Shown here: one piece after another, positions 8,403 through 64,000 of the stretch
Layout of the letters: each line of letters starts with the position of its first letter
How positions within the stretch are numbered: the first letter of the stretch is position 1
Origin: a virus
Taxonomy: Duplodnaviria > Caudoviricetes
DNA: 64,000 nt
IMG/VR virus record: IMGVR_UViG_2974626280_000001
Coordinates: 9,169 to 73,168 of that record
Reading direction: 5' to 3' (one strand)
Notes under the pieces: model-generated
What the model was told of the DNA's origin: nothing
Databases searched by the model: none
The model's input: only the letters and a program-made list of their open reading frames with translations
Program-made: the position numbers and the translations under genes

Positions 8403-8507
8403 ATTTGCAAGTCTGGCGGCAATGGACTGCCGCGAAATGTTAATTAAATGTAGCTATTTGTGTAATTACACGATACAATCACCTAAAATATCCTGCCGCG
8501 CGACACA

Positions 8508-8795
8508 GGTTATTTTTTGGTTATTCGAATAATCCTTTCAAATCATAGGAATAACCGGAATAACCAAAATAACCAAGTTTTTCCGAAACTCTTAAGGTAA
8601 GCCGAAAAAAATAATAAATTGACTACAAAAAAATAGAGTTATTTTATTATTTTTTTAGACTATCCCCGTATATCTCAAATTTTATGGTTACGGAAGTTAT
8701 TTGGATATTTTACACTAATAGTTGCGGCAACTCAGCCACTTACAGAATATCCGAAAAAATAACTTAGGATATTTTTTCTAGTACACAGGTTATTC
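8508..8795. repeat. AT-rich palindromic iteron element, copy A (putative origin or protein-binding element)
   Basis: About a dozen GGWTATT/AATAWCC heptamers in both orientations around a 14-bp inverted repeat (8605-8618/8643-8656); colinear homologue at 60283-60575. Confidence 0.75.
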
Positions 8796-8855
8796 TCAGA
8801 ATTAACACCAGCCAATAAATTTTTCGCGGCGGATAAATTATCCTTAAACATTTTG

Positions 8856-47030: not shown

Positions 47031-48179
47031 CTATGAGCGGAACACCCAAAGACGCTTAGCGGCACGTGTAACTGCCGTGTACATCATCTTAGCGTATGGG
47101 ACGCCGCGCAACATCTCCTCAATGACGATTACATTATCCCACTCAGAGCCTTGTGACTTGTGTATGGTAATGCAATAGCCGTAATCAAATCCACCGACAT
47201 TACGTTGGGCCGCGCGTTGATCCAGCTCGTCTTCGTATATAAAGCAGTCAGGATTGAGCTTGCACTTAATCTCTTTGCCCGTCGTCAACGATGTTCCGAT
47301 TACGTACAGCATCCCTGGCATTTCGTACTCGTCCAGCTCCATGTCAGGCACGTCTTCATACGACTTGACGATAAGCTGTTCACCGTTCATGAAGCCCGCG
47401 CCGTGCTGGTTAAAGGTGCAGACTATCTTTTCACCTGGAGAGGGGATAGGGTTGCAATGGCCAGCAACGTCGCGCATCAGCTTGTTATAGAATACGCGCG
47501 TCGTATTAAAGGAGCAGATAACCTGAGAGTCAGGACCCATGTGCGCCTTTAGGAAAGTAGAGCGCGGCTTGGCGTCGCTTACCACGACGTCGTCGTATTC
47601 ACGGACGGGCAGCCGATTACCCTGACGGACAAAGAAACTGGCGCGAATAATGTTAGATTCTTTACTTTGTCGCATTATCTGCTGAAGCTCTGTATCAGGG
47701 TGAATGAAGTAAGGCGCGGCCTTGACTGGAGGAATCTGCCCGGTGTCGAGGAGAACCAGCACAGGGATGCGGTGAGAAAGAAGCCTTTCTGCGTCCCACT
47801 CTCCGACCATCGACCCCTCATCCAGAACGACCATCTGCGGCTTTTCTAGCAGAGTGTCCTTTCGGAAAAACATCGGGTTTCCTTCTTCATCTTCGCCGCG
47901 CACGTTGTAGATGAATTGGTGCAGGGTCTTCGCGCCGGGGAATCCTTTTTGCTTAAGACGCGCGGCTGCTTTCCCGGTTGGCGCGATTGCCAGCGCTCCG
48001 TACTCGCCAACGCATTGGGTGGCTATCTCCTTAGCGACCGACGTCTTGCCAGTTCCCGCGAAGCCTGCCAGCGCGAAATAGGGCTTGCGGGTCTTACCAT
48101 CCTGATAGCGCCGATACCAGTCTACGGCCATACGGATGGCTTCTTTTTGTTCCGGGTTAAACTCGAAGTTGTTCGACAT
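47031..48179 (-). CDS. RecD/Dda-like SF1 helicase
   Basis: GFAGTGKT, APTGKAA, LDEGSM, GQIPPV, YCITIHKSQGSEW, YTAVTRA. Confidence 0.92.
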   Translation of the reverse strand: MSNNFEFNPEQKEAIRMAVDWYRRYQDGKTRKPYFALAGFAGTGKTSVAKEIATQCVGEYGALAIAPTGKAAARLKQKGFPGAKTLHQFIYNVRGEDEEGNPMFFRKDTLLEKPQMVVLDEGSMVGEWDAERLLSHRIPVLVLLDTGQIPPVKAAPYFIHPDTELQQIMRQSKESNIIRASFFVRQGNRLPVREYDDVVVSDAKPRSTFLKAHMGPDSQVICSFNTTRVFYNKLMRDVAGHCNPIPSPGEKIVCTFNQHGAGFMNGEQLIVKSYEDVPDMELDEYEMPGMLYVIGTSLTTGKEIKCKLNPDCFIYEDELDQRAAQRNVGGFDYGYCITIHKSQGSEWDNVIVIEEMLRGVPYAKMMYTAVTRAAKRLWVFRS

Positions 48180-60100: not shown

Positions 60101-60282
60101 TTAAAAATAGGTTAGAAAATATCGACTCTTTGTTGAGGATTTACGGTTCTTTACTGTTTGGGCATTAAATCTGAGTTAGTGTATGCATTTTACAGGCGAT
60201 TTATGCCCTAAAAAGGCCGGTGAACACACAAAATATCCTACAGGTGCATGATTCTATTATAAAAATCCTAGAATATCCGAAT

Positions 60283-60575
60283 GGTTATTTTTTGGTTATT
60301 CTATAAGCCGCTGTTGCCGCAGCACAATAACCGGAGTACCCGAAATATCCGAACTTTCCGAAAGTATTAAGGGTATACCTAAAAAAATGATAAATTCACT
60401 TAAAAAAAATACAGTGAATTTATTTTTAGACTACCTTCTACATAATCGAAATTTGTAGTTATTTAGGTTACTACGGTTATTTAAATACAGAACAGGTACT
60501 TAGAGAATATCCGAAAAATAACCAGCGGCTAAATTCCGGTTATTATCCTTTGCGGCAATCACCTCTAGGTTATTT
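60283..60575. repeat. AT-rich palindromic iteron element, copy B
   Basis: About a dozen GGWTATT/AATAWCC heptamers; central perfect 11-bp inverted repeat ATAAATTCACT (60390-60400) / AGTGAATTTAT (60413-60423); colinear with 8508-8795. Confidence 0.75.
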
Positions 60576-60683
60576 TCGAAGTACACTAGCGATGCGCATC
60601 CAGTACACGCTTCACCTCGTTCACCACCCATCTACCCGCTCTGAGCAGTGTCCACCAGCTTGCATTTATACACCACAACGGTG

Positions 60684-60713
60684 TTGACGCATCCACCAGC
60701 AGCGGCGTATAAT
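60684..60713 (+). promoter_or_regulatory. sigma70-like promoter for terS
   Basis: TTGACG-18-TATAAT, with a Chi site inside the spacer. Confidence 0.75.
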
Positions 60714-60753
60714 TACACCAGGCATCTTTAACCATTCACACAGGCGATTTCTC

Positions 60754-61236
60754 ATGAGTGCATCAGGAATTCTTTTACCAGAAGATTTTGAAGACTATAA
60801 CTTTGCGCTCAATAACAAAGAGCACTTTGACAAATACATTGATATGATCATTAAGGGCTACGACGAGACAACCGCACTACGTGTAGTCTTCGGCGAAGAG
60901 GCTTGTTCAGACGGAGGCTTCTGGGCGCGCATTTATGCTATTCGCCGGAATCGGTACTACAATCAGCAGTACCAACTTGCACTACAGAATATCAAACTGG
61001 AAGAGCTTTGGAATCCTCGCTTAGCCATTACGATGCTGCTCTTAATCGCACGCTCCAGTGAGAAACATTCTGCGCGTATTAACGCAATCAAAGAATTGAA
61101 TATCATGACAGGTATTACAGTGATGGACGAGGCTGGTAACACAAAACAGGGCCGGAGCATGGAAGATTTCTACGCGAAAATCCAGGAATCAGCCGATTCG
61201 CACTACCCACCAGCAAACGGCACTACCAAGCACTAA
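60754..61236 (+). CDS. terS: Terminase small subunit (PB1-type)
   Basis: FDKYID...WARIYA...LWNP...SARINAIKELN...DEAGNT...DFYA follows the motif order I recall for PB1-like TerS. Confidence 0.75.
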   Translation: MSASGILLPEDFEDYNFALNNKEHFDKYIDMIIKGYDETTALRVVFGEEACSDGGFWARIYAIRRNRYYNQQYQLALQNIKLEELWNPRLAITMLLLIARSSEKHSARINAIKELNIMTGITVMDEAGNTKQGRSMEDFYAKIQESADSHYPPANGTTKH

Positions 61237-61334
61237 AATTACACAAGCTTTCAGGGGTAGGCGCGGCGAATCCATACTAAGCTGCCCTACCCCACCAGTT
61301 TCGCACTACAACCCACGAGAATGCCACCTATTGG

Positions 61335-61622
61335 TTATAGTACATAACGACGAATCCACACTATACCTTTCGCACTAAGGTTAAACTCTTCCACACTAGC
61401 GTCATGCCCATTATCGAAGACAACCTGACCAGTGTCCCTGCGTAACCGCCAGCAGAAGTCCATAGTGACCAGATTCGCACTATTAAGCGCAGAGCCTTTC
61501 AGCCAGCCATAGTCGCAACCCGTACTATCCGCATAAAGCTCTAACCGTCCACCAGCGTTATCGGGTTGCACTAGGACTGGCTCATTAGCCACCAGCGCGG
61601 CCACCAGCAATAGACTCTTCAT
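61335..61622 (-). CDS. Secreted/early hypothetical protein
   Basis: Short signal-like start MKSLLLVAALVA; ATGA overlap. Confidence 0.65.
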   Translation of the reverse strand: MKSLLLVAALVANEPVLVQPDNAGGRLELYADSTGCDYGWLKGSALNSANLVTMDFCWRLRRDTGQVVFDNGHDASVEEFNLSAKGIVWIRRYVL

Positions 61623-61828
61623 CCGACAATCCGCACTATACCGCCTCGACGGGCAATCCGGTCAAAGAACGAATCGCGGAAGCTGAAGTCATCTTGCACT
61701 ACGACGACAGAGCGCTTAATCTGCTCCGCTACAACGTCCAGCTTTTGCACTACAGGCTTATTCAGGTTCAGGCCACCAGCGGCCTCAACCATCATGCGCT
61801 CATAATCTGCACTATTAAGCTCTTTCAT
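61619..61828 (-). CDS. Early hypothetical protein
   Basis: RBS GGAG. Confidence 0.65.
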   Translation of the reverse strand: MKELNSADYERMMVEAAGGLNLNKPVVQKLDVVAEQIKRSVVVVQDDFSFRDSFFDRIARRGGIVRIVG

Positions 61829-61846
61829 AATGTTCTCCAGATGTGA

Positions 61847-61868
61847 GAAAAGGCCGGATAACCCGGCC
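61847..61868 (-). terminator. Intrinsic terminator
   Basis: GGCCGG/CCGGCC stem with T tract on the minus strand. Confidence 0.65.
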
Positions 61869-61877
61869 CGATTTGCA

Positions 61878-62414
61878 CTACACGATTTCGAAGCGGTACG
61901 CGACGCCTACCCAATCGAACACCGCCACTTTCGCTTCCTTAAGCTTCATGCGGAACCGGATGTGCTTGCTGTCCGGCAGGTTAAGCGCGGTAAACGCAGC
62001 TCTAACCGATTTAAACTCTTCTTCCTTATCGCCCCATTTAACGATAACGCCGTTGCGGGTCATGCGGGCTTCAAACACCTTCTCATTGCCCCAGCTCGCC
62101 TTAATCCCTTCGGAGTTCGATTTCCGCTCGCTGGTCTTCTCTTCCACCAGCTCGCTTTTAACCTTCGCTTCAAATTCTTCGTCGGTCATCGCGTCGTAAT
62201 CCGGCGCTGGCTCTTCGGCCTTAACCGGGCGCGGAGAGTGGACTACTACCGGGCGGACATTATCATCTTCCCAGGCCAGCGCGTTAACCAGCGCCGTTAC
62301 GCGTTTTTCGGCGGTAGCGCGGTCAGCGAACTTCTTAACCGGTTTTTCGCTATGGAGGTTGTAAAACTCCACCAGCTCCTTCGTAGAAGCGGTTGCGACG
62401 TCGATGGTGTTCAT
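61878..62414 (-). CDS. Early hypothetical protein
   Basis: RBS GAGGA; own strong promoter; ELVEFYN...VKKFADRATAEKR motif. Confidence 0.75.
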   Translation of the reverse strand: MNTIDVATASTKELVEFYNLHSEKPVKKFADRATAEKRVTALVNALAWEDDNVRPVVVHSPRPVKAEEPAPDYDAMTDEEFEAKVKSELVEEKTSERKSNSEGIKASWGNEKVFEARMTRNGVIVKWGDKEEEFKSVRAAFTALNLPDSKHIRFRMKLKEAKVAVFDWVGVAYRFEIV

Positions 62415-62445
62415 AGCTAAATCCTCATTTCGTTTCGATAAATAC

Positions 62446-62474
62446 ATTATAGGTGAACCGTGTATTAAAGTAAA
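62446..62474 (-). promoter_or_regulatory. Strong early promoter (TTTACT class)
   Basis: TTTACT-17-TATAAT. Confidence 0.85.
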
Positions 62475-62548
62475 GCACTTTCTTAAAATATTTTCGAAAA
62501 GATGGAAAGTATTTTAAGAAGCCCGGTTATCGTTACCGGGCGGAACGG

Positions 62549-62749
62549 TTAGCCGAAGAGGATAGCCTCTAAGACTTCGGCGGCGTCTTCCTTCGATGCA
62601 TGTTTAGAATCGAGGTGCCATACATATTCGCCGTAATGGCGGGTATAGATATAGACCTTTCCTTCGTCTTCGGTTTTACGAACCATCTTACCCTGTAGGC
62701 TGGAGATAGGACGCTGGTACACTTCGTTAAGGTTAAGTTTTCGAGCCAT
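62549..62749 (-). CDS. Early hypothetical protein
   Basis: RBS GAGG; own promoter and terminator. Confidence 0.75.
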   Translation of the reverse strand: MARKLNLNEVYQRPISSLQGKMVRKTEDEGKVYIYTRHYGEYVWHLDSKHASKEDAAEVLEAILFG

Positions 62750-62782
62750 CTTTCTATACCTCGTTTTCGTTTCGATAAGTAC

Positions 62783-62810
62783 ATTATAGATGAGCGACGA
62801 AAAAAGTAAA
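62783..62810 (-). promoter_or_regulatory. Strong early promoter (TTTACT class)
   Basis: TTTACT-16-TATAAT. Confidence 0.75.
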
Positions 62811-62864
62811 GCATTTTTTCGACATTTTTATTTAAATTATTTTCGAAAAAATGAGAGATTTTTC

Positions 62865-62893
62865 TTTACTTCCATCTTAGCCTATCTTATAAT
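62865..62893 (+). promoter_or_regulatory. Strong early promoter (TTTACT class)
   Basis: TTTACT-17-TATAAT with AT-rich UP region. Confidence 0.85.
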
Positions 62894-62947
62894 GTATCTC
62901 ATAGGGCGACGGAATAGACCGAAGCCGAAACGAACGAGGATTTAAAG

Positions 62948-63232
62948 ATGGCTAAACTAACCGCTACCGAACTCGCTAACGCGTCCGCTTTCTTCGCTGG
63001 CGAGTACGTTCCTTACGCTTCCCTACTCGCCGCTAACGTGGGCGTTAAAATCGGCGAAGAAATCCCCGCCGAAGTAGTAGGAGATTTCGGTTTCGACGAC
63101 GAAGAAGGTGCGTATCTCGATACCGTCGACGGGCGCGAAATCCGGGTTATCGAAACCGAACTTTACGTAGCCGCCGAAGACGTAGCGACCGGAGAAGTTG
63201 CCTTCTTCGCCCTCGAAGAAATCGAAGAATAA
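62948..63232 (+). CDS. Highly acidic early protein (candidate DNA mimic)
   Basis: 94 aa, about 22 D/E versus 4 K/R; RBS GAGGA. Confidence 0.75.
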   Translation: MAKLTATELANASAFFAGEYVPYASLLAANVGVKIGEEIPAEVVGDFGFDDEEGAYLDTVDGREIRVIETELYVAAEDVATGEVAFFALEEIEE

Positions 63233-63270
63233 AAAGATGTAAATATTTCGGATAAAGTGAGAAATAAAGC

Positions 63271-63299
63271 TTTACTAGTCGGACACTTTATCCTATAAT
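63271..63299 (+). promoter_or_regulatory. Strong early promoter (TTTACT class)
   Basis: TTTACT-17-TATAAT. Confidence 0.85.
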
Positions 63300-63357
63300 G
63301 TTTATATCGGAAGGGGAAATGAACCTCTTCTACCTAACCTAAAACGAGGACTTAAAA

Positions 63358-63624
63358 ATGACTAACATGACTAAAGAAATTATCGCTATCCTGATGGCTT
63401 CTAAAACTAACGAAGGTGTTGCGTTCTCCGAAATTACCGGCCATGTCCGCCTCGTCGTCGATAACACCGAAACGTCCGAAGTTGCGAGCCTCATCGTTAC
63501 CGGCTTCGTTCCTAACCTCGACGACGATATGGACGACGAATTAGCTCCGGTATGGTTACATAAATATTCTTTCGGATGGATGCTCGGACTCGATAACGGC
63601 GACCAGTACGCTATCCTTAACTAA
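63358..63624 (+). CDS. Acidic early hypothetical protein
   Basis: RBS GAGGA; DDDMDDE patch. Confidence 0.75.
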   Translation: MTNMTKEIIAILMASKTNEGVAFSEITGHVRLVVDNTETSEVASLIVTGFVPNLDDDMDDELAPVWLHKYSFGWMLGLDNGDQYAILN

Positions 63625-63643
63625 AAATACACAGCCTTACATT

Positions 63644-63670
63644 AGCCTCGCTTATAGCGGGGCTTTCGTC
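63644..63670 (+). terminator. Intrinsic terminator
   Basis: AGCCTCGCT-TAT-AGCGGGGCT followed by TTCGTC. Confidence 0.65.
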
Positions 63671-63783
63671 GTTCTATCCCCTTCCTCCGCTATACCCTCT
63701 CTTAGAAAGTGTTCCCTTGGTTAATGTTGTTATGTCGAATAATAACGCTCGTTAATTATATCTTCGCCGCGCTGTCGCGTCCG

Positions 63784-63995
63784 GTATAGTTAGGACGGAG
63801 ATAGTTTGAGGGTTAATGGTATGGGAGCTAATTGTTACGGTCGGTGATGGTTAGCTGACGAATGATTATGCTGCGTATTGTATGTTGCGTAATTGTTAGG
63901 GCGCGAATGATTACGGTGCGTGATGGTTTGCTGACTAATCATTAGCCTTCTAATTACAAGCGAAATAATGGTTAGTGCGCTAATCATTGAGTGTG
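63784..63995. repeat. Degenerate 15-16-bp tandem array with 76-bp higher-order period
   Basis: 14 units, most beginning with a KWATNRTTA-like box, at 63784, 63799, 63814, 63829, 63844, 63860, 63875, 63890, 63905, 63920, 63936, 63951, 63966, 63981. Confidence 0.75.
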
Positions 63996-64000
63996 CCCTT

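What the first reader, a model, noticed from the sequence alone, without database searches (positions are those of the whole stretch)
60652..62376. Nine co-oriented Chi sites in 1.7 kb, pointing at a DNA end beside terS
Seen: GCTGGTGG occurs nine times on the minus strand, in intergenic DNA, inside plus-strand terS and inside minus-strand genes, so its orientation does not follow the coding strand. I noticed only three others in the rest of the window (1926 +, 30150 -, 48316 -); random expectation is about one per 65 kb per strand. Established: RecBCD recognises Chi when entering from its 3' side, then stops degrading and loads RecA, and Chi also limits CRISPR spacer acquisition. Inference: these sites would act on RecBCD entering from lower coordinates, which predicts a physical end or cut near 60.3-60.6 kb (element B/terS promoter). 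The phage would then be mimicking host self signals to protect the first-entering end and promote recombination-dependent circularisation.
Basis: partly seen in the sequence, partly recalled or inferred. Interest (0 to 1): 0.78.

Follow-up and report, generated by a model that had tools for sequence, protein, structure and literature searches.

The report
Chi-site array in phage terminal repeat
Nine same-direction copies of Chi, the 8-letter signal that switches the host enzyme RecBCD from degrading DNA to recombining it, sit just inside the 3.6-kb repeat at both ends of this lytic phage genome and face its left end; the trick is known from phages P1 and LLS, but no searched paper reports it for this phage family.

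Summary
GCTGGTGG occurs nine times on the minus strand in window 60652-62376, against 0.02-0.06 expected (P about 1e-17).

The window is the right 64 kb of a 73,168-bp myovirus genome with an exact 3,603-bp direct terminal repeat (DTR, window 60398-64000). The cluster lies 255-1979 bp inside the DTR's left boundary.

The neighbouring gene is a genuine small terminase (PDB 7UXE, E = 2e-32). Relatives with PhageTerm-defined DTRs have their ends at the same place.

- Pantoea phage PA1 keeps seven sites, six at the same positions, in DNA only 55-65% identical.
- Serratia and Erwinia relatives have four or five co-oriented sites at non-homologous positions.
- E. coli relatives have one or two. Pseudomonas and unknown-host relatives have no cluster.

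Most likely reading: a RecBCD/Chi trap that spares the left end and loads RecA for repeat-to-repeat recombination, as proposed for P1 and shown for LLS. Function, and which end enters first, are untested.

I file it as a new member of a known kind. This scan has already reported Chi-filled terminal repeats in giant E. coli phages.

The parts
60398..64000 (.). Right-hand copy of the exact 3,603-bp direct terminal repeat (same as genome 1-3603)
   Evidence: genome 1-3603 is identical to 69566-73168; the source run assembles to 69,595 bp with one copy, so the repeat was added deliberately by the depositor.
60391..60422 (+). Hairpin (arms 60391-60400 and 60413-60422) containing the repeat's left boundary (60397|60398), at the centre of a ~300-bp GGTTATT/AATAACC element
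   Evidence: dG -10.4 kcal/mol, z = -3.5; a second copy of the element lies at window ~8495-8820 (78% identity).
60652..60659 (-). Chi 1 (repeat position 255), intergenic
   Evidence: PA1 has a one-mismatch version here.
60693..60700 (-). Chi 2 (repeat position 296), inside the spacer of the terS promoter
   Evidence: conserved in PA1.
60684..60713 (+). Sigma-70-type promoter TTGACG-18-TATAAT upstream of terS
   Evidence: 11 of 12 consensus positions.
60754..61236 (+). Small terminase (TerS), E217 type
   Evidence: PDB 7UXE 'Small terminase', E = 1.9e-32; phrog_4783; annotated terS in phage Mansfield.
61207..61214 (-). Chi 3 (repeat position 810), antisense in terS (Pro-Pro-Ala)
   Evidence: conserved in PA1.
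61549..61556 (-). Chi 4 (repeat position 1152), in orf95 (Ala-Gly-Gly)
   Evidence: conserved in PA1.
61589..61596 (-). Chi 5 (repeat position 1192), in the orf95 signal-peptide-like N-terminus (Leu-Val)
   Evidence: absent in PA1 and lost by C>A in a metagenomic relative.
61601..61608 (-). Chi 6 (repeat position 1204), in orf95 (Leu-Val)
   Evidence: conserved in PA1.
61773..61780 (-). Chi 7 (repeat position 1376), in orf69 (Ala-Gly-Gly)
   Evidence: conserved in PA1. In a ~97% identical metagenomic contig, three substitutions flank the octamer and none fall inside it.
62144..62151 (-). Chi 8 (repeat position 1747), in orf189 (Leu-Val)
   Evidence: conserved in PA1.
62369..62376 (-). Chi 9 (repeat position 1972), in orf189 (Leu-Val)
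   Evidence: not present in PA1.
60874..61880 (+). Separate array of 14 GCACTA boxes (consensus TT[CT]GCACTA[CT]), interleaved with the Chi sites on the other strand; probably a binding site for a phage protein (terminase recognition?)
   Evidence: The boxes are present in PA1 and Wifcevirus but absent from MyoSmar, so they are independent of Chi.
61335..61622 (-). orf95, unknown function, signal-peptide-like N-terminus
61619..61828 (-). orf69, unknown function
61878..62447 (-). orf189, conserved protein of unknown function (phrog_4730)
62446..63299 (.). Four near-identical early-type promoters TTTACT-N16/17-TATAAT (62474-, 62810-, 62865+, 63271+)
   Evidence: four of the window's five copies lie in the repeat, where shuffles give none.

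Best explanation
The nine octamers are functional Chi sites kept by selection in the outer half of the phage's direct terminal repeat.

Virion DNA is linear, with the 3.6-kb repeat at both ends. A RecBCD enzyme that loads on the left end moves rightwards with the minus strand as its 3'-ended strand, so it meets nine correctly oriented Chi sites within the first 2 kb. If each site is recognised about 30% of the time, the array is recognised about 96% of the time (the per-site figure is from my own knowledge).

Recognition attenuates the nuclease. RecBCD then loads RecA on a 3' tail that still has 1.6-3.3 kb of repeat sequence ahead of it. That tail can invade the right-hand repeat of the same or a sister genome. 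This protects the end and creates a circle or concatemer junction, the substrate for replication and packaging.

Shown here: the sites, their orientation, their position relative to the deposited end, and their conservation and turnover in relatives.

Inferred: that the host RecBCD recognises this octamer, that the left end is the exposed (probably first-ejected) end, and that recombination follows.
For: 1. Nine exact Chi octamers, all on one strand, against 0.02-0.06 expected. Thirteen of the 15 genomic sites share this orientation, and they cluster at the left end (K-S P = 5e-7).
2. The cluster lies 255-1979 bp from the left boundary of an exact 3,603-bp terminal repeat.
3. Relatives place their ends at the same offset from terS. 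The PhageTerm-annotated repeats of Mansfield (3,673 bp) and MyoSmar (3,559 bp) begin 360-390 bp upstream of terS, against 356 bp here. WFC and WFH carry a ~3.7-kb repeat (PMC6563267).
4. PA1 has seven sites, all co-oriented. Six are positionally identical (48 of 48 bases) in DNA that is 55-65% identical, and the other sites differ between the two phages.
5. Other relatives have their own co-oriented clusters beside terS, in non-homologous sequence and at differing positions: MyoSmar 4, TropicalSun 5, MTx 4.
6. There is no cluster in Pseudomonas or unknown-host relatives, which fits a host-enzyme signal.
7. The sites fall in several reading frames and in intergenic DNA. They are independent of the lineage-specific GCACTA boxes.
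8. No recombinase or Gam-type inhibitor was found among the 30 proteins scanned. This matches the pattern reported for Chi-rich lambdoid phages that lack a recombination module (PMC12315714).
9. The same logic is published for P1 (bioRxiv 10.1101/2021.07.08.451572). Chi is reported active in all enteric bacteria tested.
10. The cluster's density, 5.2 per kb on one strand, far exceeds that of enterobacterial genomes (about 0.1-0.45 per kb on both strands). Captured host DNA therefore does not explain it.
Against: - No experiment or read-level end mapping exists for this phage. Only assembled contigs were available, so the termini rest on the depositor's record and on relatives.
- The E. coli relatives (Wifcevirus) infect the model Chi host yet carry only one or two sites, so the array is not essential to this genome design.
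- The right-hand end has no correctly oriented Chi for 62 kb. It must be shielded some other way, or the model is incomplete.
- If packaging runs rightwards from terS as in lambda, the right end would be ejected first, not the left.
- The host is not known to me, and Chi activity in Pantoea, Serratia or Erwinia was not verified here.
- Many proteins have unknown function, so a hidden recombinase or RecBCD inhibitor cannot be excluded.
Confidence: 0.65

Rival explanations
1. Shield only. The array acts purely to switch off RecBCD degradation at an exposed left end, at entry or at a cut concatemer. This would also curb RecBCD-fed CRISPR spacer capture. Repeat-to-repeat recombination would play no needed part, and concatemers would form some other way.
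For: It has the same sequence evidence as the main reading. The repeat also carries five strong host-type promoters and two small, very acidic proteins. That fits an early region which needs to survive only until phage anti-host proteins are made.
Against: Chi recognition and RecA loading are coupled in RecBCD, so recombination is hard to avoid (general knowledge). The sites sit in the outer half of the repeat and leave at least 1.6 kb of homology downstream. That placement suits recombination and is not needed for shielding.
Confidence: 0.15
2. The octamer is a binding or recognition site for something other than RecBCD, such as terminase, a phage regulator or a nicking enzyme. Its identity to Chi would then be coincidental.
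For: The sites surround terS and are interleaved with a second, clearly phage-specific box array. Wifcevirus and Pseudomonas relatives keep one or two copies at similar places.
Against: - All eight positions match Chi at every copy, while the flanks vary.
- The arrays recur at non-homologous positions in three genera whose phage-specific boxes differ or are absent.
- Spacing is irregular.
- E217 TerS showed no appreciable DNA binding in vitro (PMC9611059).
Confidence: 0.08
3. The deposited ends are wrong or irrelevant, for example because the genome is permuted or the boundary was mis-called. The sites might still be selected, for instance to protect rolling-circle tails, but they would not point at a fixed end.
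For: No raw reads could be examined. The repeat was added to a 69.6-kb assembly by the depositor.
Against: Three other groups of records (Mansfield, MyoSmar/MTx, WFC/WFH) place the boundary at the same offset from terS. Both boundaries have similar sequence in Mansfield. The boundary falls in a conserved hairpin element.
Confidence: 0.08
4. The cluster is a by-product of composition, codon use or repeated peptides, or of captured host DNA.
For: Leu-Val and Ala-Gly-Gly codons can spell Chi.
Against: Markov models up to order 4 expect no more than 0.06 sites. The sites use three coding contexts plus intergenic DNA. All nine share one strand although the genes lie on both strands. The density is more than ten times that of enterobacterial genomes. 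The octamers are conserved where their flanks are not.
Confidence: 0.02

Closest known systems
Phage P1 (and P7, D6): Chi concentrated in and near the terminal redundancy (Subramaniam & Smith, bioRxiv 10.1101/2021.07.08.451572)
   Same: The enteric Chi octamer is strongly over-represented and concentrated where the packaged DNA ends and its terminal repeats lie. The proposed role is RecBCD/RecA recombination between the repeats to circularise incoming DNA.
   Different: P1 is temperate and packages by headful from pac, so its ends are variable and its redundancy is 5-10 kb. It has Chi on both strands, serving both ends, and its need for recA and recBC is shown experimentally. The phage here appears virulent: no lysogeny genes were seen in the proteins scanned, and its relatives are lytic. 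It has a fixed 3.6-kb repeat and sites in one orientation only, and nothing has been tested.
Lambdoid phage LLS and the 'no Rec module' class; Pseudomonas phage MD8 (Genome Res 2025, PMC12315714)
   Same: Many co-oriented Chi sites are clustered at one end (20 of 23 in LLS), pointing at the end open to RecBCD. These phages lack their own recombination module. Relatives in other hosts use that host's octamer.
   Different: Those phages are cos-packaging temperate siphoviruses, with sites spread over several kb at the right end. LLS has measured RecBCD-dependent growth. The array here is far tighter (9 sites in 1.7 kb) and lies inside a terminal repeat, so every genome carries one active copy and one inactive copy.
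Chi-filled ~21-kb terminal repeats of giant E. coli phages
   Same: Lytic phages with fixed long terminal repeats that hold co-oriented Chi sites.
   Different: They belong to an unrelated phage group, have a much longer repeat and a lower site density. I did not re-examine those genomes.
Protein-based answers to RecBCD: lambda Gam, T7 gp5.9, P22 Abc2, T4 gp2 (general knowledge)
   Same: They solve the same problem of an exposed double-strand end in a RecBCD-positive cell.
   Different: They inhibit RecBCD or cap the end. The array here would instead recruit the enzyme through a DNA signal. No homologue of these proteins was detected among the 30 proteins scanned.

Membership tests
Enteric Chi site (RecBCD hotspot 5'-GCTGGTGG-3') | Exact octamer sequence | tested here: met
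   Nine exact copies.
Enteric Chi site (RecBCD hotspot 5'-GCTGGTGG-3') | Oriented so that RecBCD coming from a double-strand end approaches from the octamer's 3' side | tested here: met
   All nine lie on the minus strand, 255-1979 bp to the right of the repeat's left boundary and genome left end. This depends on the deposited termini, which relatives corroborate.
Enteric Chi site (RecBCD hotspot 5'-GCTGGTGG-3') | The host has a RecBCD that recognises this octamer | not testable with these tools
   The host is not disclosed. The nearest relatives infect Pantoea, Serratia, Erwinia and E. coli. The literature reports Chi active in all tested enterics. The octamer is 3-6 times the reversed-pattern control in 4-6 Mb genomes of a 151-genome family sample, but genera were not named.
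Enteric Chi site (RecBCD hotspot 5'-GCTGGTGG-3') | Chi-dependent nicking or hotspot activity | not testable with these tools
   Needs an enzyme assay or genetic crosses.
Phages with terminally clustered, co-oriented Chi (P1 / LLS class) | Chi among the top octamers and significantly clustered at an end | tested here: met
   Top octamer of the repeat, rank 4 of 37,220 in the genome, K-S P = 5e-7.
Phages with terminally clustered, co-oriented Chi (P1 / LLS class) | Strong orientation bias towards the end open to RecBCD | tested here: met
   Nine of nine in the cluster and 13 of 15 in the genome.
Phages with terminally clustered, co-oriented Chi (P1 / LLS class) | No phage-encoded recombination module or RecBCD inhibitor | tested here: inconclusive
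   None among the 30 proteins scanned with PHROGs, but many proteins have no assigned function and the smaller ORFs were not all scanned.
Phages with terminally clustered, co-oriented Chi (P1 / LLS class) | Growth depends on or is enhanced by RecBCD, RecA and Chi | not testable with these tools
   Needs plating on rec mutants.
Fixed direct-terminal-repeat genome | Identical sequence at both ends of the linear genome | tested here: met
   3,603 bp, exact.
Fixed direct-terminal-repeat genome | Read-start pile-ups or doubled coverage at the repeat boundaries | not testable with these tools
   Only assembled contigs were served. Relatives carry PhageTerm annotations.
E217-type small terminase | Sequence homology to the solved TerS (7UXE) | tested here: met
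   E = 1.9e-32 over residues 4-146; 41% identical to the MyoSmar gene.

The most novel reading that the evidence does not exclude
In this family of lytic myoviruses (Kylevirus, Myosmarvirus), the terminal repeat together with a one-sided Chi array would be a self-contained module. It hands genome circularisation or concatemer formation to host RecBCD and RecA in place of phage recombinases. Site number would be tuned lineage by lineage to the host: 7-9 in Pantoea phages, 4-5 in Serratia/Erwinia phages and 1-2 in E. coli phages, which may carry a protein countermeasure instead. The strict one-sidedness would then reveal, from sequence alone, which genome end is exposed first. Such arrays could be used to read host Chi motifs and ejection polarity across terminal-repeat phages.
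Probability: 0.3. Interest if true: 0.62.

Novelty: new member of a known kind. Interest (0 to 1): 0.5.

Why it matters
If the array works as proposed, a virulent phage is using a host DNA signal, not a protein, to survive RecBCD and to start recombination-dependent replication. That extends a strategy so far documented for temperate phages (P1, LLS-type lambdoids).

The related genera form a natural series of 9, 7, 5, 4 and 1 sites with the same genome layout. This offers a ready comparative and experimental system for asking how many Chi sites an end needs, and what replaces them when they are lost.

In practice, the orientation of such arrays could help annotate true genome ends and ejection polarity in terminal-repeat phages. 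It could also help predict sensitivity to RecBCD-linked defences when choosing biocontrol phages for Pantoea, Erwinia or Serratia.

Tried and rejected
- **Read-level end mapping.** The only run holding the sequence, and three metagenomes with relatives, are served as assembled contigs. They give no read starts or coverage steps. They showed only that the source assembly is 69,595 bp with one repeat copy.
- **Host-swap test with the Pseudomonas octamer GCTGGCGC in PB1-like relatives.** One phage has three co-oriented copies 1.6-2.7 kb past terS, and another has a single copy there. This is neither conserved nor convincing.
- **Host-side check for Pantoea.** E. coli RecC recovered only close Enterobacteriaceae. 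The family-wide scan gave counts without genus names, so Pantoea could not be singled out.
- **Pfam on the repeat's ORFs.** No hits.
- **Near-identity DNA searches.** No close record in the phage or E. coli collections except partial 73% identity to PA1.
- **Literature.** No paper in the searched library mentions Chi in Wifcevirus, Kylevirus or Myosmarvirus. One hit for GCTGGTGG plus 'direct terminal repeat' was only a ribosome-binding-site table entry.
- **Rejected explanations.** Codon or peptide bias, local composition, and captured host DNA.
- **Not attempted.** Structure prediction of the repeat's unknown proteins, and complex prediction.
Full report
**1. Observation**

GCTGGTGG occurs 13 times in the window. 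Nine copies lie on the minus strand between 60652 and 62376.

- Shuffles give 1.58 sites per window on both strands.
- Markov models of order 0-4 give 0.02-0.06 sites for 1,725 bp of one strand.
- Poisson P(>=9) is about 1e-17, and none of 200,000 random placements of the genome's 15 sites put nine within 1,725 bp.
- The spacings are irregular: 41, 514, 342, 40, 12, 172, 371 and 225 bp.
- Two sites are intergenic, one is antisense in the plus-strand gene (Pro-Pro-Ala), and six are sense in three minus-strand ORFs in two frames (Ala-Gly-Gly twice, Leu-Val four times).

Codon or peptide bias therefore does not explain the sites.

**2. What the region is**

The held genome is 73,168 bp, and the window is its right-hand 64 kb. 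The first 3,603 bp are repeated exactly at the right end, so window 60398-64000 is the right copy of a direct terminal repeat.

The source run assembles to 69,595 bp, which is one repeat copy plus a k-mer overlap. The repeat was therefore added deliberately by the depositor and is not an assembler artefact.

The phage is a myovirus (tail sheath, portal, protease and major head protein). Its large terminase lies about 10 kb from the left end. It has a DnaE/DnaQ-type polymerase, primases, helicases and a ligase.

Its relatives, found by protein search, are:
- Pantoea phage PA1 (Kylevirus, Lindbergviridae);
- the E. coli Wifceviruses (WFC, WFH, Mansfield, ECML-117);
- the Serratia/Erwinia Myosmarviruses;
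- the Pseudomonas PB1-like Pbunaviruses.

The gene beside the cluster (60754-61236) had no Pfam hit and only an unnamed PHROG. It does match the solved E217 small terminase, 7UXE, at E = 1.9e-32. In this family terS is known to lie far from terL (PMC9611059).

**3. The end**

- terS starts 356 bp inside the boundary.
- In phage Mansfield the PhageTerm-annotated 3,673-bp repeat starts 360 bp before the homologous terS.
- WFC and WFH have a ~3.7-kb repeat with the same layout (PMC6563267).
- MyoSmar's PhageTerm-annotated 3,559-bp repeat, flipped to the terS-plus orientation, starts about 390 bp before terS.
- The MTx record also begins about 400 bp before terS.
- Both boundaries look alike in Mansfield: an A/T-rich start, an end of the form ...CTT(T)|, and a conserved stretch just beyond.
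- The boundary sits in the left arm of a hairpin (z = -3.5) at the centre of a ~300-bp element that recurs once elsewhere in the genome.

The copy in this window is internal in virion DNA. The physical left end is the identical copy at genome position 1, or the cut made at a concatemer junction.

**4. Orientation**

RecBCD recognises Chi on the 3'-ended strand as it approaches from the octamer's 3' side. At the left end that strand is the minus strand, so all nine sites are active for an enzyme entering there. They are inactive for one entering at the right end.

Across the non-redundant genome, 13 of the 15 sites have this orientation, and they cluster at the left end (K-S P = 5e-7). The nearest correctly oriented site for an enzyme entering at the right end is 62 kb away.

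**5. Comparative evidence for selection**

- **PA1.** It has seven sites, all on the same strand, in the homologous 1.6 kb. In a pairwise alignment that is only 55-65% identical, six of our nine octamers are identical at all eight bases in PA1. One PA1 site and three of ours have no exact counterpart, which indicates turnover.
- **A ~97% identical metagenomic contig.** It has three substitutions within four bases of the Chi at 61773 and none inside it. It has lost the same site that PA1 lacks.
- **Myosmarviruses.** They have their own co-oriented clusters just past terS: MyoSmar 4, TropicalSun 5 and MTx 4, with MTx at different positions. These lie in small genes and spacers that are not homologous to ours.
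- **Wifceviruses.** One site, occasionally two.
- **Pbunaviruses.** One or two stray copies, and no conserved cluster of the Pseudomonas octamer GCTGGCGC.
- **Metagenomic relatives of unknown host.** None.

Every site in the enteric-phage clusters is on the strand opposite terS.

A second array of 14 GCACTA boxes on the plus strand behaves differently. It is shared with PA1 and Wifcevirus and absent from MyoSmar, and one distant relative has a different box repeated 11 times. The boxes therefore follow phage lineage, whereas Chi follows the host group.

**6. Other context**

- The repeat holds a near-consensus sigma-70 promoter for terS, with one Chi in its spacer.
- It also holds four near-identical TTTACT-N16/17-TATAAT promoters, where shuffles give none in 64 kb. 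This marks it as an early region read by host polymerase.
- It encodes two small, very acidic proteins (pI about 4.1) and several proteins of unknown function.
- None of the 30 proteins scanned is a recognisable recombinase or Gam/Abc2/gp5.9-type inhibitor. Many have no assignment.
- In a 151-genome sample of the enterobacterial family, every 4-6 Mb genome has the octamer at 3-6 times the reversed-pattern control, or 0.1-0.45 per kb on both strands. The cluster's 5.2 per kb on one strand cannot be borrowed host DNA.

**7. Mechanism**

The best reading (about 0.65) is a RecBCD/Chi trap at the left end. With about 30% recognition per site, nine sites give about 96% recognition (the per-site figure is from my own knowledge).

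Recognition attenuates degradation and loads RecA on a 3' tail that still has 1.6-3.3 kb of repeat ahead of it. This is enough to invade the right-hand repeat of the same or a sister genome and form a circle or concatemer junction. The same logic is proposed for P1 and supported experimentally for the lambdoid phage LLS.

Several things remain inferred:
- that the host enzyme reads this octamer;
- that the left end is the exposed end;
- that recombination follows.

The one-sidedness predicts that the left end is ejected first, or that it is the free end left by terminase, as in T7-type right-to-left packaging (my own knowledge). If packaging instead ran rightwards from terS, as in lambda, the right end would be ejected first and the model would need revising.

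Two facts limit the claim. The E. coli relatives manage with one site, and the right end has no Chi protection.

**8. Known or new**

Terminal, co-oriented Chi clusters are an established idea for P1 and its relatives, for LLS-type lambdoid phages, and for a Pseudomonas phage with its own octamer.

No paper in the searched library reports them for Wifcevirus, Kylevirus, Myosmarvirus, or any lytic myovirus with a fixed terminal repeat.

This scan has already reported Chi-filled 21-kb terminal repeats in giant E. coli phages (AI notes, not rechecked here).

I file this as a new member of a known kind and give it moderate interest. Its value lies in the graded series of relatives and in the sharp, testable polarity.

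Noticed in passing
window 60874-61880 (+): Fourteen GCACTA boxes (TT[CT]GCACTA[CT]) lie on one strand through terS, intergenic DNA and two opposite-strand ORFs, often 51-105 bp apart. They are shared with PA1 and Wifcevirus (ATTTGCACTAT, 9-10 copies) and absent from MyoSmar. A distant IMG/VR relative (L035) has TTCAAATC 11 times beside its terS instead. This is probably a lineage-specific protein-binding array, possibly for terminase recognition.
   Followed up: partly
whole window, e.g. 2242, 4958, 6527 ... 61594: AGCGCGGC is the genome's most frequent octamer: 29 copies in the window against 4.2 expected. The copies are dispersed every 2-3 kb, 20 on the plus strand and 9 on the minus, regardless of gene strand. 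One copy bridges the adjacent Chi pair at 61589/61601. Its function is unknown; it could be a nick site, a modification target or a polarity motif.
   Followed up: partly
window 60270-60600 and 8495-8820: A ~300-bp element rich in GGTTATT/AATAACC heptamers around an A-loop hairpin occurs twice (78% identity). The terminal repeat's left boundary falls in the left arm of the hairpin in the first copy. The second copy lies between head genes.
   Followed up: partly
window 62948-63232 (+) and 63358-63624 (+): Two small, very acidic proteins (94 aa, pI 4.05; 88 aa, pI 4.11), each behind a TTTACT-N17-TATAAT promoter and a good ribosome-binding site, lie inside the terminal repeat. They are candidate DNA-mimic anti-host proteins, for example against restriction or RecBCD.
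   Followed up: no
window 63740-64000: The inner end of the terminal repeat is a run of short degenerate repeats (ATGATTA / TAATCATT / GGTTAG motifs). Mansfield has a similar AATCATTA-type run at its repeat end.
   Followed up: no
window 61335-61622 (-): orf95 begins MKSLLLVAALVA, which looks like a signal peptide. Two of the Chi sites are spelled by its Leu-Val codons.
   Followed up: no
window 47031-48179 (-): The phage encodes a RecD/Dda-like helicase (PHROG hits: 'Dda-like helicase' and 'exonuclease V').
   Followed up: no
L004 (Pseudomonas phage fHoPae01) 2305-3365: Three of this phage's six copies of the Pseudomonas Chi-like octamer GCTGGCGC are co-oriented within 1.1 kb downstream of terS. 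The related phage Banzai has only one there.
   Followed up: partly
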